From a virus: a stretch of 64,000 nucleotides of DNA. Shown piece after piece: positions 36,549 to 46,864 of the stretch (the stretch's first letter is position 1; each line of letters starts with the position of its first letter). A program made the position numbers and the translations under genes. The stretch spans positions 82,807 through 146,806 of IMG/VR virus record IMGVR_UViG_3300045988_034415, one strand, 5' to 3'. A model generated the notes under the pieces. It searched no databases. It was not told the DNA's origin and was given only the letters and a program-made list of their open reading frames with translations.

Positions 36549-36803
36549 TTAGCGAATGTTATTATAAATGCAAGATAGTTGCATTAAATATTCAATACCA
36601 GCTCCATTAGCTAGTCCGTCTTGCAATTTATTTAATAATTCTAATTTTACATCTGTTGTTTTATTGTCTAACTTCACCCAGTTAGTTGCCTTTGATTCAT
36701 TACATCCTAAATCAGTATTTACTGGACATTCTGACAAACTAGTCTTTAATATTTTTACTTCATCTACTTCTTTACTTGTTAAGTCTTTAACTTCTTTAGC
36801 CAT
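36549..36803 (-). CDS. hypothetical protein (84 aa); first gene of the minus-strand small-gene operon
   Basis: ORF track. Confidence 0.45.
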   Translation of the reverse strand: MAKEVKDLTSKEVDEVKILKTSLSECPVNTDLGCNESKATNWVKLDNKTTDVKLELLNKLQDGLANGAGIEYLMQLSCIYNNIR

Positions 36804-36900
36804 TGTTATAAATTTTAGTTATTGTTAATAATTCTGATTTAAGTTCGCAAATATATTATTATTTAATTTGACAATACAAAATTAGTTATATATTTCAATA

Positions 36901-36914
36901 TTACCAAATGGTAA
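36901..36914. promoter_or_regulatory. perfect palindrome TTACCAAATGGTAA (operator-like)
   Basis: Read directly in the divergent AT-rich intergenic region. Confidence 0.4.
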
Positions 36915-36933
36915 TATAATTATTAATATATAT

Positions 36934-37148
36934 TATATATTGCCAACTCAAATTCACAGTTAATATTAAGTATATTGCCAACTCGGAACTTCATGACGTG
37001 CTGTGGCAATCTGCGCCCCTTCGGGGCTTGCTTGCAATTAGTAAGATGAATAGAAATTAATATATATTGCCAACTCACAAGTACGGGTGCTCAAAATCAC
37101 ACCCCTCCCACTCCCGGGGTGGGTTGTCATATTATATATTGCCAACTC
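36934..37148 (+). repeat. array of four direct repeats (TA)TATATTGCCAACTC (iteron/operator-like)
   Basis: Copies at 36934-36949, 36971-36984, 37061-37076 and 37133-37148; interspersed GC-rich hairpins (gcccc-ttc-ggggc at 37015-37027; cccactcccggggtggg at 37105-37123). Confidence 0.8.
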
Positions 37149-37456
37149 GGATGCTGGGTGAATATTGCAAGATTTGTGTATATTGCGGATACGACAGTCG
37201 TGTTACCCTTCACACCCCTCACCCATGTTTGGAGAAAATCAAAAGATTTATATCATTTGGTTTTGCTTTATAATATTCATTTTAAAATTATTAGCTTATG
37301 TACACTATTTTATCAAACGGTTTAGTTCGTGTTAATCTTACAGGTTGTTATATCACAATGTCAGAATATAAAGAACTAATTGCAGGCGTATAAAATTAAA
37401 TTAAGAACGGGTAAATAAGTCCGTTCTATATTGTTTCACTAATAAATTATTAAACT

Positions 37457-37939
37457 ATGAATTTAACAGAATTACAAGAAGTTAACAAGAAGTTACCGAA
37501 AGCAAGCAAAAACGAAATTGCGGCAGCTTTAAACCGTTTGGGTGTGAATCCTGATTCTATCAAGGTAGGCGACAAATTGAAGTTTCCCGCTGAAATTAAC
37601 GAATTTAACGGAACAATCACAAAGGGAGTTGTAAACGGTAATACATTCTTTCAAGTTGCCGTAGAGGTTAACGGAACGGCAAGAAACGTGTCTATCAATT
37701 CTTTGTTCCGGTCTTTCAACGACCGTGAAAACAACAAGCGTATTACACCGGTTGACATTCTTCCAGAGGCGGACAAAGACAAATGTATTTTCACTATGTT
37801 TGAAAATAAGACAATAGCGGAATGTCTTGCAGATTTACAAGGTACGGAAGTAACCGCAAAGGCGATAGAAACGTTTGAAAGCGTCGCAAGAGACGGCAGC
37901 CAAATGAACGTAAATGTCATTGCATATTGCAAGGAATAA
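37457..37939 (+). CDS. hypothetical protein (160 aa) with atypical (GC-richer) codon usage
   Basis: ORF track; GCG/CCG/CGT/GGC codons are frequent, unlike the neighbours. Confidence 0.5.
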   Translation: MNLTELQEVNKKLPKASKNEIAAALNRLGVNPDSIKVGDKLKFPAEINEFNGTITKGVVNGNTFFQVAVEVNGTARNVSINSLFRSFNDRENNKRITPVDILPEADKDKCIFTMFENKTIAECLADLQGTEVTAKAIETFESVARDGSQMNVNVIAYCKE

Positions 37940-38926: not shown

Positions 38927-39646
38927 CATCACAGGGTTTAGCTCTTCTAAGTAGTTGCAAATGCTTGGAATCCTTTACGTGCAAAATGGACATAATGCAT
39001 GTATTGCCCAAATTAAGACGTTCCTGCTTCACGCGTTAAAGCAGGAGTCCATTATGGTTGTTTTAATTACATTAATCTTTAAGTTTTAAACAGCGTCCTG
39101 CATTGTTTGTGGGTTTTGGTATGGCTCCTCTGCCAAGTAATGCGTACAAGAGCTATGATAGACTCACAAAGAAAATGTATTTGTGAGTAAACAATGGTGA
39201 AACCACATTGCTTTAAGTAGTAATGTGGGGACCATTCCGCCCTATTTGCAATTATGAACTGCATAGTGACAGAGACCTAAGAGAGGGAAGCAAATGAGCG
39301 TTGACTATCGTAGCGAAAGCTGCGTTCCACCATCGTACGTAGGGGTGTGTGGGTAATCGGCTAAAGGAACGTTCTGCAACTTGTGCCTCACAAGCATGAG
39401 TTGTACGTAGAGTACGTGTGGCAGCCTGGAATAGACAGGCAATTATATCAAAAACTCAATAACTTCCCAAGACATTGAGGGCACCAGTTTCTTATGGGCA
39501 GAAGTATGTTAGATAGGTCACTAGTTCTGTGCGCAGAGTTAGTAAGCTGTCGATTAAAGAGAGAAGCATTCGGCATGAGAACCCGACTACTCGTAAGTTT
39601 TAGGTGTAAAATGCAACCACTAGAAACCTCACACTGAATAGGTAAA
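38927..39646 (+). ncRNA. candidate large structured non-coding RNA (720 nt ORF-free, GC-enriched block)
   Basis: No ORF of 60 aa or more on either strand except a short antisense one; GC content visibly above the flanking genes; GNRA hairpin cgtaGCgaaaGCtgcg at ~39306-39321. Confidence 0.3.
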
Positions 39647-41131: not shown

Positions 41132-41671
41132 GTGAGTAGGTTAACTGCCAACTTATCTATGACTAATGAATTAGCAGAGGAATACAGAGAGCTTAAACGT
41201 AACTTAATACCCATATTGTTACAGACATGTGGTAAAGAGCGTTTATGTGATGCTGTAGACAAATGGTTATTAGTAAAATCCGGTATCAAAGTAATATCTA
41301 AATCATGGTATGAAGGTGGATTGCCTGGTAAAGAGTATGTGGTAATTAAGGATACTTCAGTACTTGCTAGCTATCCCTCTAAAGGTGCTAATTATGAACA
41401 TCGTCTTGCGAGGTATAGAGCCTACACTAAGGCATTTAACCATGTAAGAGAAGAAGGAATACCTTTGGCTCCTATACAGGTTGATAAATTTACCAAAGTA
41501 CTTGTCAATGGAGTAACACTATGCCTTATCGGAACTTTTGAAGGTAAATCAGAGAATGACTTTATCAAAGAGATATCTGGTAAGGTTTACGTAAAGGCAG
41601 GTACTGATTCGGTAGATGTTATTAATCTACAAACTAGAAGAACTAAAAGATATAAAGTTCAGTACACATGA
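41132..41671 (+). CDS. hypothetical protein (179 aa)
   Basis: ORF track. Confidence 0.45.
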   Translation: MSRLTANLSMTNELAEEYRELKRNLIPILLQTCGKERLCDAVDKWLLVKSGIKVISKSWYEGGLPGKEYVVIKDTSVLASYPSKGANYEHRLARYRAYTKAFNHVREEGIPLAPIQVDKFTKVLVNGVTLCLIGTFEGKSENDFIKEISGKVYVKAGTDSVDVINLQTRRTKRYKVQYT

Positions 41672-44086: not shown

Positions 44087-44608
44087 GGGCCTAGATTTGG
44101 TTTTGACAGGCGATTACAAGTTAGTAAGACGTGTAGAGTTCGTACCAACTCTTTAATAATGATACAGCAATTTAAGTGGAAACACTGAAGTAAGAATGGC
44201 AGCCTAAGCTGCTGGCTTAATTAGTGGACGTCATTGATTAAGTCGGGTTAATTGGAGAGACCTAGAAACAGAAGAGGTGTGGGAAGAAGCGTATAGAGCA
44301 GCCCACTTAACTTGAAAGCCAAAGGTTAGTAAAGCTGAAATCTCCACTACCTATCTATGGGTTACAAATAGAAACGTTCTCCAACGTAAATGGAGTGGTG
44401 GAGCGACCGTTCGGTCAAGCCCAGTTTGGTAGTTTGTGAACAACTAAGTCGTAGCCCTACGAGGGAGACGTAATTGGTGAATTAACACTCGGCTTCTTAG
44501 TAAAACTACCTACATGCTGAACTCAACAGCTGATGTAATAAAATAGAGACACACGTAATCTTATTAATGAGGGTTGTTTGGACGGCGGTTCGACTCCGCC
44601 TAGGTCCA
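44087..44608 (+). ncRNA. ssrA: tmRNA (ssrA), ~520 nt
   Basis: 5' GGGCCUAGAUUUGGUUUUGACAGGCG resembles E. coli GGGGCUGAUUCUGGAUUCGACGGG; 3' GGACGGCGGUUCGACUCCGCCUAGGUCCA resembles GGACGCGGGUUCAACUCCCGCCAGCUCCACCA; acceptor GGGCCUA pairs with UAGGUCC; short frame ...GNTEVRMAA-TAA at 44163-44207 about 90 nt from the 5' end. Confidence 0.7.
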
Positions 44609-44636
44609 CTATTATTAACGTTTAAATATCAATTTT

Positions 44637-46484: not shown

Positions 46485-46864
46485 ATCCACTATTGACGAA
46501 TAGTGGTAGCAAAACTTGGTCTGAAGAACCAGTAGACATATTCCGGAGTATGTCTATGACTTAAAGGCTATATCAAAGAGTTGAAACCTGTATCTATTCG
46601 AACAGTAGGAGTTCACCTGATTAAGCATCAGAAAACAGTAGTGCAAATCTACTATAGATATTGTGTAAGAGAGAATCTACACGGTCTGCATTATATAATC
46701 AGCATGCAGATAGGTCACCAAGCAAACCTCTTTCCTGCCTGGTCAAGTGTGCATTACGGTCTGTAAGTGGCGAGCGGGTTAACGTATGTCCGATTGCCGT
46801 AATGCCGCTTGTTTATTGTTTAGAATAAAGAAAGACTCTCATAACAATAAATTTAAACAAAGAG

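What the first reader, a model, noticed from the sequence alone, without database searches (positions are those of the whole stretch)
36880..37260. Divergent intergenic hub with 4x direct repeat TATATTGCCAACTC, a perfect palindrome and GC-rich hairpins: candidate origin or operator array
Two oppositely oriented operons start either side of this 650-nt AT-rich region. It contains four copies of a 14-16-nt repeat (36934, 36971, 37061, 37133) at irregular spacing, the perfect palindrome TTACCAAATGGTAA (36901-36914), and small GC-rich stem-loops (gcccc-uuc-ggggc; cccacucccggggugggu). Iteron-like repeats plus AT-richness between divergent early transcription units is the classic layout of a phage replication origin or of a repressor or activator operator set. 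Tiny Cys-containing ORFs (an 18-codon ATG ORF at 36993-37049, and a TTG-start ORF 37067..37273 with CKICVYCGYD) overlap the repeats.
Basis: seen in the sequence. Interest (0 to 1): 0.6.

Follow-up and report, generated by a model that had tools for sequence, protein, structure and literature searches.

The report
Tandem early-promoter boxes with structured RNAs
The four repeats are real and most likely form a row of promoter-like boxes at the start of the rightward early genes of a large crAss-like gut phage, each followed by a short conserved folded RNA; nothing points specifically to a replication origin.

Summary
TATATTGCCAACTC occurs exactly four times (36936, 36971, 37063, 37135), all on the + strand. 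It occurs nowhere else in the 64 kb, and shuffles give zero copies.

The window is a distant crAss-like phage with contigs up to about 185 kb. The hub (36804-37456) lies between two diverging blocks of small genes of unknown function.

The repeat is a paralogue of the leftward promoter. On the minus strand at 36855-36836, TATATTTGCGAACTTAAATC carries a canonical Bacteroidota TAnnTTTG box about 45 nt before the leftward gene. The rightward copies read TATATT-GCCAACTCAAATTC, one T shorter. The same TATATTG box also sits 30 nt before the 160-aa gene.

In relatives down to 47% protein identity the core ATTGCCAACTC is kept, while copy number and spacing change. The GC-rich hairpins keep pairing through compensatory changes. 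The tiny Cys ORFs lose their start codons or frames.

Best reading (about 0.5): a divergent early-promoter hub whose rightward boxes head short structured RNAs or a structured leader. Nothing specific supports an origin or operator array. Transcription was not measured, and which polymerase reads the boxes is unknown. Assembled contigs end in the hub unusually often, so a genome terminus is not excluded.

The parts
36836..36855 (-). Leftward promoter-like box P_L, an inverted paralogue of the repeat. The minus strand reads TATATTTGCGAACTTAAATC, with a canonical TAnnTTTG box at 36848-36855. It lies about 45 nt upstream of the ATG of the 84-aa gene (36803).
   Evidence: It shares TTGC(C/G)AACT(C/T)AAAT with copy 1. 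Relatives keep G(C/T)GAA(C/T)T(C/T)AAATC at this place.
36877..36884 (-). Second TAnnTTTG match on the minus strand (TAATTTTG). Its TTTG lies about 21 nt upstream of the P_L box, where the -33 TTTG element of Bacteroidota promoters is expected.
   Evidence: spacing read from the sequence.
36804..36935 (.). Extremely AT-rich spacer (13.6% GC) that holds P_L and the inverted repeat TTACCA-AA-TGGTAA (36901-36914). That inverted repeat reads as a decayed copy of the motif. Several assembled contigs begin within this stretch.
36936..36949 (+). Repeat copy 1, TATATTGCCAACTC, followed by A. Its downstream 16-mer AATTCACAGTTAATAT recurs exactly at 49017, just after a TAnnTTTG box upstream of tRNA-Tyr.
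   Evidence: Copy 1 is exact in the L184 and L307 clades.
36971..36984 (+). Repeat copy 2, followed by G; it heads module A.
   Evidence: The core ATTGCCAACTC is kept in all clades. In L184 and L307 the TATA is replaced (TTAATTGCCAACTC).
37006..37035 (+). Module A extended hairpin: GCAA-UCU-GC-GCCCC / UUC / GGGGC-UU-GC-UUGC.
   Evidence: 98.9% of cells paired. There are two independent compensatory changes: C-G to U-A in L141, and A-U to G-C in the L017 clade. Versions with the 3' partners slid by 1-3 columns pair in only 22-53% of cells.
37063..37076 (+). Repeat copy 3, followed by A; it heads module B.
   Evidence: It has decayed in the L017 clade (TATATGTCGCACTC) and changed in L184 (TATATTGCCGACTC).
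37085..37123 (+). Module B: hairpin B1 (GGGUG/CACCC, 37085-37104), a C-rich linker, and hairpin B2 (CCCAC/GUGGG, 37107-37123).
   Evidence: B2 becomes CCCCU-AUAC-GGGGG in L307, so pairing is kept with a different sequence. C and G run lengths vary between strains.
37135..37148 (+). Repeat copy 4, followed by G; it heads module C.
   Evidence: Exact in L184. It is TATATTGC(A/T)AACAC in the L017 clade.
37149..37230 (+). Body of module C. It holds a degenerate copy (TATATTGCGGATAC, 37179-37192), the small hairpin AUACGAC/GUCGUGU (37189-37203), and the conserved C-rich stretch UUACCCUUCACACCCCUCACCCAUG.
   Evidence: The C-rich stretch is nearly invariant in all clades. A possible long-range helix from the 5' start to UUUGGAG has only moderate support.
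37231..37269 (+). Long AU-rich hairpin closing module C, followed by a U-rich tail; it looks like an intrinsic terminator.
   Evidence: one covarying pair, A-U in 8 sequences against G-C in 4.
37298..37393 (+). Probable 31-codon gene. It is absent from the L017 and L307 clades.
   Evidence: It was called as a gene in relatives. Substitutions look third-position-biased by eye, and a diverged homologous peptide is seen in L141, L142 and L184.
37404..37427 (+). Terminator-like hairpin after the 31-codon gene.
   Evidence: Compensatory changes in relatives were read by eye from the alignment (GGGT/GTCC, GAGC/GCTC, GGAC/GTCC).
37427..37439 (+). Promoter-like box TATATTGTTTCAC, 30 nt before the ATG of the 160-aa gene.
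   Evidence: for the TATATTG hit. ATTGTTTCACTAA is kept in every clade.

Best explanation
The region is a divergent early-promoter hub of a large, distant crAss-like (Crassvirales-related) phage of the human gut.

One promoter with a canonical Bacteroidota -7 box (TATATTTG, 36855-36848, minus strand) drives the leftward block of small genes. Facing the other way are four tandem paralogues of the same element, TATATTG-CCAACTC, which are one T shorter. A further TATATTG box lies 30 nt before the 160-aa gene.

I infer that transcription starts at the AA inside the repeat, or at the purine just after it. On this reading copies 2, 3 and 4 each head a short, GC-rich, conserved folded RNA module. Module C (about 37145-37275) has the anatomy of a small RNA gene: a box, internal hairpins, a nearly invariant C-rich single strand, and a long AU-rich terminator-like hairpin. 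Together the modules may act as separate small RNAs or as one structured leader of the rightward early operon.

Shown here: the repeats, their homology to the leftward promoter box, their conservation, the covarying hairpins, and the non-coding status of the small ORFs.

Inferred only: that the boxes fire, where the 5' and 3' ends lie, which polymerase reads them (host sigma-A holoenzyme or a phage RNA polymerase), and what the RNAs do.
For: (1) The repeat is non-random and local: four exact copies against zero expected, and none elsewhere in 64 kb. All four point the same way as the rightward genes.

(2) It is homologous to a promoter. P_L on the minus strand (TATATTTGCGAACTTAAATC) aligns with copy 1 (TATATT-GCCAACTCAAATTC). 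P_L carries TAnnTTTG with a TTTG about 21 nt upstream, at the expected distance from the leftward ATG. This is the Bacteroidota sigma-A consensus (PMC7366714).

(3) The + strand of the hub has no canonical TAnnTTTG, so the rightward genes have no other candidate promoter. Six of the eleven + strand TATATTG in the 64 kb lie in this 500-nt stretch, one of them 30 nt before the 160-aa gene.

(4) The 16 nt after copy 1 recur exactly after a canonical box upstream of tRNA-Tyr.

(5) Every copy is followed by a purine. Purines are the preferred initiating nucleotides in Bacteroides thetaiotaomicron (PMC7366714).

(6) In clades whose 160-aa protein is only 47-58% identical, the core ATTGCCAACTC and the modules persist at 72-82% nucleotide identity. 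Spacing and copy number change, and short units are tandemly duplicated. Each box therefore travels with its own module rather than forming a phased array.

(7) There is evidence for RNA-type structure. Hairpin A has two compensatory changes and 98.9% pairing. Hairpin B2 keeps pairing with a different sequence in L307. The terminal hairpin of module C has an A-U/G-C covarying pair.

(8) There is a precedent. [quoted passage not shown]
Against: No transcript data were available, so no 5' or 3' end is shown.

The rightward boxes miss the canonical consensus (TAnnTTG rather than TAnnTTTG) and have no -33 TTTG at a fixed distance.

In the L184 and L307 clades copy 2 reads TTAATTGCCAACTC. There the conserved part is ATTGCCAACTC rather than the TA of a -7 box, which suits a sequence-specific protein or RNA-level role better than sigma-A recognition.

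In module A the repeat can pair with a downstream UGGCAAU, which would require the repeat itself to be transcribed.

Single-sequence folding energies are not better than shuffles (z about -0.0 to -1.3). Only the hairpin at 37404-37427 passes the terminator scan. Hairpin A has no U tail.

The number of independent lineages is small (4-5 clades), so covariation counts are low.

The host phylum is inferred from crAss-likeness and from the TAnnTTTG boxes. It was not tested.
Confidence: 0.5

Rival explanations
1. RNA-level repeat. The whole array is one early transcript made from a single start near copy 1. AUUGCCAACUC is then a repeated RNA element: a processing site that cuts the precursor into modules, a binding site for a phage RNA-binding protein, or a pairing strand.
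For: The core ATTGCCAACTC is conserved even where the TATA is lost (copy 2 of L184 and L307). The repeat can pair with downstream sequence in module A: a 7-bp helix with UGGCAAU, kept as U-A to U-G. By hand pairing it may also pair in module B. In module C the last three bases of the motif (CUC) and the bases that follow it can pair with downstream UUUGGAG. A conserved sequence at the head of each unit is the pattern seen in processed RNA arrays.
Against: The part of the motif that pairs differs between units, so pairing alone does not explain its conservation. The motif is homologous to the leftward promoter P_L, which cannot be part of a rightward RNA. The long-range helix has only weak to moderate support and is absent in the L017 clade. 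No nuclease or RNA-binding protein gene is recognisable nearby.
Confidence: 0.2
2. Operator or regulator sites. The conserved 11-14 nt are DNA sites for a phage-encoded transcription factor. The factor would switch both the leftward promoter and the rightward boxes on or off together.
For: Conservation extends well beyond what a sigma-A -7 box needs. The same block GC(C/G)AACT(C/T) lies at P_L and at the rightward copies. Related sequences occur on the minus strand at 38326-38312 and 39697-39684.
Against: The motif has no dyad symmetry. Spacing is unphased and not conserved. No HTH or RHH-type protein is detectable among the neighbours at E <= 0.1, apart from sub-threshold noise. This reading is compatible with the sites also being promoters, so it is only partly a rival.
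Confidence: 0.12
3. Replication origin. The repeats are iterons bound by an initiator, and the neighbouring 13.6%-GC stretch is the unwinding element.
For: Direct repeats lie next to a very AT-rich 132-nt stretch. A local minimum of cumulative GC skew falls at 36-38 kb. In some lytic phages origins coincide with promoters (textbook knowledge of T7 and T4), so this is not exclusive of the best explanation.
Against: Spacing of 35, 92 and 72 nt is not helically phased. It changes by insertions of about 150 nt and by tandem duplications in relatives. One clade keeps a single exact copy. The skew minimum at 22-24 kb is deeper, and both minima follow gene orientation. No primase, helicase, polymerase or initiator family is detected in the flanking genes. 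Covarying hairpins between the repeats are not expected of iterons.
Confidence: 0.07
4. Genome terminus or packaging region. The hub spans the physical ends (or terminal repeat) of the linear genome, and the repeats take part in end recognition. The early promoters would then lie just inside the leading end, as in N4-like phages that inject their own RNA polymerase.
For: Many independent assemblies break inside the hub. The contig of L107/L132 starts at window 36917. L017, L086 and L175 start within 22 nt of one another just upstream of the first copy. L173/L180, L181, L308 and L309 end in module C. One short contig joins unrelated high-GC DNA to copy 1.
Against: Other contigs of 95-185 kb run straight through. 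The break points are scattered over about 400 nt. They coincide with near-pure AT sequence and with tandemly duplicated units, both of which break short-read assemblies. Two contigs of one sample overlap inside module C, as expected of a repeat-induced break. No read data were available.
Confidence: 0.07

Closest known systems
Tandem early promoter clusters at the start of phage early regions (T7 A1-A2-A3; the three N4 early promoters)
   Same: Several promoter elements of one family, in one orientation, are packed into a few hundred bases at the head of the early genes. Basis: textbook knowledge, plus the layout seen.
   Different: Here the intervals between boxes hold conserved GC-rich hairpins. 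The boxes are exact 14-mers. The recognising polymerase is unknown. Nothing was transcribed experimentally.
Bacteroidota primary-sigma (sigma-ABfr) promoters: -7 TAnnTTTG with -33 TTTG (PMC7366714)
   Same: The leftward member of the family is a perfect match with the right spacing and the right distance to its gene. The rightward copies share its downstream block and the TA..TTG frame.
   Different: The rightward copies are one T short of the consensus and have no -33 element. They also carry a 7-nt conserved extension (CCAACTC) that ordinary promoters of this phage lack.
Early long non-coding RNAs of the crAss-like phage phi14:2 (g004-g006 intergenic regions; 10.1101/2020.03.07.982082)
   Same: A long intergenic region beside the early genes of a crAss-like phage. 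[quoted passage not shown]
   Different: There is no sequence similarity, and no comparable exact repeat family in the phi14:2 region. In phi14:2 the early transcripts showed no common upstream motif.
Virion-RNA-polymerase early promoters of jumbo phages (AR9: AAATATATATTAT-(6N)-G+1; PMC5312081)
   Same: A single extended AT-rich conserved block with no -35-like partner, followed by six bases and a purine. Compare (T)TATATATTGC-CAACTC-R here.
   Different: The AR9 and phiKZ enzymes are split multisubunit polymerases. They are unrelated to the single-chain virion polymerase described for phi14:2. Those promoters are spread over the genome, whereas this motif is confined to one hub. The resemblance is a lead, not a test.
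Iteron-type origins (lambda ori, P1 oriR)
   Same: Several direct repeats next to an AT-rich stretch.
   Different: Here the spacing is unphased and unstable, there are structured modules between the repeats, no initiator gene is found, and the repeat is homologous to a promoter.
Intergenic small RNA genes of Bacteroides (e.g. GibS; PMC7366714)
   Same: Module C has a promoter box, hairpins, a conserved single-stranded segment that could serve as a seed, and a terminal hairpin with a U-rich tail.
   Different: It is phage-encoded, and its candidate seed is C-rich rather than AU-rich. No target or expression data exist. Rfam has no match.

Membership tests
Iteron-type replication origin | Three or more direct repeats at regular, helically phased spacing that is kept among relatives | tested here: not met
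   Spacing is 35/92/72 nt. Relatives show insertions of about 150 nt, tandem duplications, and in one clade only one exact copy.
Iteron-type replication origin | Adjacent AT-rich unwinding region | tested here: met
   36804-36935 is 13.6% GC. It also holds the leftward promoter.
Iteron-type replication origin | Initiator or replication genes at or next to the repeats | tested here: inconclusive
   No Pfam or PHROG replication family is found in the flanking genes, but all of them are proteins of unknown function.
Iteron-type replication origin | Strand-compositional switch specific to the site | tested here: inconclusive
   There is a local skew minimum at 36-38 kb, but a deeper one at 22-24 kb. 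Both coincide with changes of gene orientation. Only 64 kb of about 180 kb is available.
Bacteroidota sigma-A promoter | -7 box TAnnTTTG | tested here: not met
   The four repeats read TATATTG(C), one T short, and no TAnnTTTG occurs on the + strand of the hub. The inverted paralogue P_L at 36855-36848 does meet the consensus.
Bacteroidota sigma-A promoter | -33 TTTG about 19-21 nt upstream | tested here: not met
   It is absent at a fixed distance from the four repeats (contexts). It is present for P_L. The element is reported to be weakly conserved in the phylum (PMC7366714).
Bacteroidota sigma-A promoter | Correct orientation and distance to a downstream gene or RNA | tested here: met
   All copies face the rightward genes. 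The TATATTG box at 37427 lies 30 nt before the ATG at 37457. P_L lies about 45 nt before the ATG at 36803.
Bacteroidota sigma-A promoter | Mapped primary 5' end a few bases downstream | not testable with these tools
   No transcript data are available. The sequence offers AA inside each copy and a purine after it.
Repressor operator array | Dyad-symmetric sites and a regulator gene nearby | tested here: not met
   TATATTGCCAACTC has no internal dyad (read from the sequence). No DNA-binding family passes threshold in ten neighbouring proteins.
Structured RNA (sRNA or leader) | Base pairs kept through compensatory changes | tested here: met
   Hairpin A has 2 pairs with changes on both sides and 98.9% of cells paired, against 22-53% for slid controls. 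Hairpin B2 is re-written in L307. The terminal hairpin has one covarying pair. There are few independent lineages.
Structured RNA (sRNA or leader) | Membership of a described RNA family | tested here: not met
   Rfam 15 at E <= 10 gives only a 16-nt, 12-bit chance match.
Structured RNA (sRNA or leader) | Intrinsic terminator at the 3' end | tested here: inconclusive
   The long AU-rich hairpin 37231-37269 has a U-rich tail, but the consensus scan flags only 37404-37427.
Small protein-coding genes (the two Cys ORFs) | Start codon and reading frame kept in relatives | tested here: not met
   For 36993-37049 the ATG becomes ATA, AGT or AGG in three lineages. 37067-37273 crosses C4/C5/C6 runs and G runs of variable length.

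The most novel reading that the evidence does not exclude
The 11-14-nt core (ATTGCCAACTC with its TATA lead) may be the promoter of a phage-encoded RNA polymerase, such as the virion-packaged enzyme described for the crAss-like phage phi14:2, rather than of the host enzyme. The three modules behind it would then be a set of immediate-early phage small RNAs. One carries an invariant C-rich single strand that could act on host RNAs. This would give the first promoter consensus for a crAss-type virion polymerase, since none was found in phi14:2. It would also give the first small-RNA cluster of the order. No such polymerase gene was looked for in this phage.
Probability: 0.15. Interest if true: 0.7.

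Novelty: new member of a known kind. Interest (0 to 1): 0.38.

Why it matters
crAss-like phages are among the most abundant viruses of the human gut, and how they start their infection programme is poorly known. In the one system studied, phi14:2, the early transcripts showed no shared promoter motif, and abundant early non-coding RNAs have no known function.

A sharply defined, conserved box family at the head of the early genes of a roughly 180-kb relative gives concrete sequences to test. The tests are in vitro transcription with host or virion polymerase, and 5'-end mapping. The candidate small RNAs behind the boxes could then be searched for targets.

If it turns out to be only a set of host-type promoters with leader hairpins, it is ordinary phage gene organisation.

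Tried and rejected
Known RNA families: Rfam at gathering threshold on the whole window, and at E <= 10 on 36700-37500, found nothing in the hub.

tRNA-like elements: ARAGORN finds none in the hub.

Coding reading of the small ORFs: rejected.

CRISPR-like or toxin-antitoxin-type RNA arrays: rejected from the sequence, because the unit lengths differ (35, 92, 72 nt) and the intervals are unrelated to one another.

Sigma-54 and sigma-70 readings: the sigma-70 scan gives 11 hits against 7.5 expected and nothing consistent across copies. By eye there is no GG-N10-GC arrangement.

Closer annotated relatives: the GenBank phage collection holds only one partial record of this phage, and it stops before the hub.

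It added only three or four near-identical relatives.

phi14:2 comparison: its early non-coding region has no comparable exact repeat family.

Literature searches for a Crassvirales early promoter motif found nothing beyond the phi14:2 study.

Long-range helix closing module C: support is significant only in the window-type sequence (5 of 1000 shuffles). It is marginal in L141 and L184 and absent in the L017 clade. RNAalifold prefers to pair the GGAG into the terminal hairpin. I treat the helix as unproven.
Full report
WHAT THE WINDOW IS

The 64 kb carry a terminase large subunit and a portal protein that match head-and-packaging PHROG families. The terminase is about 30% identical to those of many Crassvirales and 99.9% identical to an unannotated 117-kb human faecal phage record. 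The window also holds 25 tRNA genes, a tmRNA and a RAGATH-34 RNA. Contigs carrying the same genes reach 160-185 kb. This is therefore a large, distant crAss-like gut phage. A Bacteroidota host is inferred, not shown.

Genes run leftward at 1-22 kb, rightward at 23.5-32 kb, leftward at 32-36.8 kb and rightward from 37.4 kb. GC skew simply follows these blocks.

THE OBSERVATION

TATATTGCCAACTC occurs exactly at 36936, 36971, 37063 and 37135, all on the + strand, and nowhere else. Shuffles give 0.00 exact copies. The gap between the leftward 84-aa gene and the rightward 160-aa gene is 36804-37456.

Only its left 132 nt are nearly pure AT (13.6% GC). The modules between the repeats are 45-53% GC.

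The so-called perfect palindrome is a 6-nt inverted repeat with a 2-nt spacer. It is not kept in other clades and looks like a decayed copy of the motif.

The gap also holds a probable 31-codon gene (37298-37393) and a terminator-like hairpin (37404-37427).

RELATIVES

About thirty loci from gut assemblies carry the hub. They fall into the following groups, given with the identity of the 160-aa protein to the window's:
- Window type: 93-100%.
- L141, L142 and L140: 80-88%.
- L307: 58%.
- L184: about 58% identity from a hand comparison of the first 17 codons only.
- L017, L086, L170, L174 and L175: 47%.

Despite that protein divergence, blastn still aligns parts of the non-coding hub of L017 and L086 at 72-82% identity and does not align the flanking genes. 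The non-coding sequence is thus under at least as much constraint as its coding neighbours.

WHAT IS KEPT AND WHAT IS NOT

The core ATTGCCAACTC is kept:
- Copy 1 is exact in the window, L184 and L307 types.
- Copy 2 is exact in the window and L017 types, and reads TTAATTGCCAACTC in L184 and L307.
- Copies 3 and 4 vary (TATATTGCCGACTC, TATATTGCAAACAC, TATATTACCAATTC) or decay.

Spacing and number are not kept. The L017 type has about 150 nt of extra sequence with its own hairpin. L175 and L307 carry tandem duplications of short units such as TATATATTGCTAACAC... and TCTCGAATAC. This is not the behaviour of a phased protein-binding array. Each box seems to go with the module that follows it.

THE LINK TO PROMOTERS

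A search allowing one indel found an inverted relative of the repeat at 36855-36836. The minus strand reads TATATTTGCGAACTTAAATC, against copy 1's TATATT-GCCAACTCAAATTC. This copy has a perfect TAnnTTTG box, the -7 element of the Bacteroidota primary sigma factor (PMC7366714). It has a TTTG about 21 nt upstream and sits about 45 nt before the leftward gene's ATG. It is thus a good candidate for the leftward promoter.

Canonical boxes also precede tRNA genes and other genes of the window, so the phage uses host-type promoters elsewhere. On the + strand of the hub there is no canonical box. Instead TATATTG occurs six times in 500 nt, out of eleven in the whole + strand. The sixth lies 30 nt before the ATG of the 160-aa gene, inside a block (ATTGTTTCACTAA) that every clade keeps.

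The 16 nt after copy 1 recur exactly after the canonical box upstream of tRNA-Tyr at 49002-49032. Each copy contains AA and is followed by a purine. Purines are the preferred start nucleotides in B. thetaiotaomicron (PMC7366714).

Taken together, the repeats are most simply a family of promoter boxes: one facing left and the rest facing right.

Two things do not fit a plain host promoter. The boxes are one T short and lack a -33 element. And the conserved part extends 7 nt further than host promoters need, surviving even where the TA is lost (copy 2 of L184 and L307). A dedicated factor or a phage polymerase is therefore possible. The single-block AT-rich-6N-purine layout recalls the virion-polymerase promoters of AR9 (AAATATATATTAT-6N-G; PMC5312081). 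That is a resemblance only.

WHAT FOLLOWS THE BOXES

Module A (after copy 2) contains an extended hairpin at 37006-37035. Over eight distinct sequences, 98.9% of cells pair, and two pairs change on both sides in independent lineages: C-G to U-A in L141, and A-U to G-C in the L017 clade. Versions with the 3' partners slid by 1-3 columns pair in only 22-53% of cells. RNAalifold also finds a 7-bp helix between the repeat itself and a downstream UGGCAAU.

Module B (after copy 3) has two short hairpins. The second (CCCAC/GUGGG) is rewritten as CCCCU/GGGGG in L307.

Module C (after copy 4) has a small hairpin and a nearly invariant C-rich stretch (UUACCC.U.ACACCCCUCACC). It ends in a long AU-rich hairpin with a U-rich tail (37231-37269), which shows one A-U/G-C covarying pair. 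A long-range helix closing module C is only weakly supported.

Single-sequence folding energies are not exceptional and Rfam has no match. The case for RNA structure therefore rests on the few compensatory changes.

Run-length variation (C4 to C6, and G runs) inside module B, together with loss of the ATG in three lineages, rules out the two small ORFs.

THE RIVALS

Origin. The layout (repeats plus an AT-rich stretch) fits superficially. However, the spacing is unphased and unstable, the skew is uninformative, no initiator is detectable, and covarying hairpins between the repeats are unexpected.

Operators. There is no dyad and no regulator gene. Still, the long conserved block shared by the leftward and rightward boxes leaves room for a factor that binds the promoters.

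RNA-level repeat. This is a serious alternative, because the core rather than the TATA is what is conserved, and because the core can pair downstream.

Terminus. An unusually large number of assemblies break inside the hub. That would fit a genome end with early promoters just inside it, as in phages that inject their own polymerase. But the breaks are scattered, they coincide with pure-AT and duplicated sequence, and many contigs read through. Only read-level data can settle this.

COMPARISON AND VERDICT

The closest known things are tandem early promoter clusters of lytic phages, the Bacteroidota -7 promoter, and the abundant early non-coding transcripts of phi14:2. The phi14:2 region shows no comparable repeat.

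The finding is a real, conserved feature. It is most likely a new example of a known kind of element, with a modest chance of being the recognition sequence of a phage polymerase heading a small-RNA cluster.

Confidence in the promoter-plus-structured-RNA reading is about 0.5. Interest is 0.38.

Noticed in passing
window 38935-39444 (compare L017 1915-2418): About 510 nt with no convincing ORF are 85.5% identical between the window and the L017 clade, although the neighbouring 160-aa proteins are only 47% identical. Minus-strand pseudo-ORFs there look conserved only because the DNA is. It is probably a large conserved non-coding RNA. Rfam finds nothing at E <= 1.
   Followed up: partly
window 39445-39625: A stretch of about 180 nt is absent from the L017 clade. 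Its ends are 100% identical to unannotated DNA of several Crassvirales genomes (46 nt at 39450-39495 by the pairwise blastn, 39451-39496 by the collection search; 22 nt at 39594-39615). In cr113_1 the match lies in a roughly 1-kb gene-free gap near the genome start. The interior differs. It looks like a small mobile element, or an RNA with conserved ends and a variable centre.
   Followed up: partly
window 50877-50949; tRNA block 43.4-63.9 kb: One of the 25 tRNAs has anticodon CUA (ARAGORN calls it Pyl), so it is an amber suppressor. This hints at TAG recoding in part of the genome, as reported for some crAss-like groups. There is also a 525-nt tmRNA match (44087-44611) and a RAGATH-34 RNA (46487-46594).
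   Followed up: no
hub, in relatives: L107/L132, L017, L086, L175, L173/L180, L181, L308, L309: At least eight independent contigs start or stop inside the 650-nt hub. Four of them do so within about 45 nt upstream of the first repeat copy. The cause could be a genome end, an AT-rich coverage gap, or repeat-induced breaks.
   Followed up: partly
L233 1451-1503: A 1.5-kb high-GC, bacterial-looking contig ends with 53 nt that are 100% identical to window 36938-36990 (copy 1 to copy 2). An ORF reads across the junction. It is probably an assembly or ligation chimera, but the junction falls exactly at the repeat.
   Followed up: no
window 49002-49046: The canonical box TACCTTTG upstream of tRNA-Tyr is followed by CACTCACAATTCACAGTTAATAT. 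It shares an exact 16-mer with the sequence after repeat copy 1.
   Followed up: partly
window 38326-38312, 39697-39684 and about 39752 (minus strand); 41142-41156 (+): There are further motif-like sequences: TATTATTGTCAACTC, TCTATTGTCAACTC, TATATTTGCCAATGTT and TTAACTGCCAACTTA. The last is conserved in other clades, just before a gene start.
   Followed up: no
L175 about 460-670; L307 3843-3895: Short promoter-like units are tandemly expanded in some strains. Examples are TATATATTGCTAACAC..., a duplicated 56-nt unit that contains the C-rich stretch, and three copies of TCTCGAATAC. The hub is therefore a hotspot for local duplication.
   Followed up: partly
window 37100-37120 in relatives: C-run (C4, C5, C6) and G-run lengths in module B differ between otherwise near-identical strains. 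This could be homopolymer slippage or sequencing noise.
   Followed up: no
window 37457-37939: The N-terminus of the 160-aa first rightward protein has a weak, sub-threshold LysM-like stretch (E = 0.048). The protein has no homologues outside this phage group.
   Followed up: no
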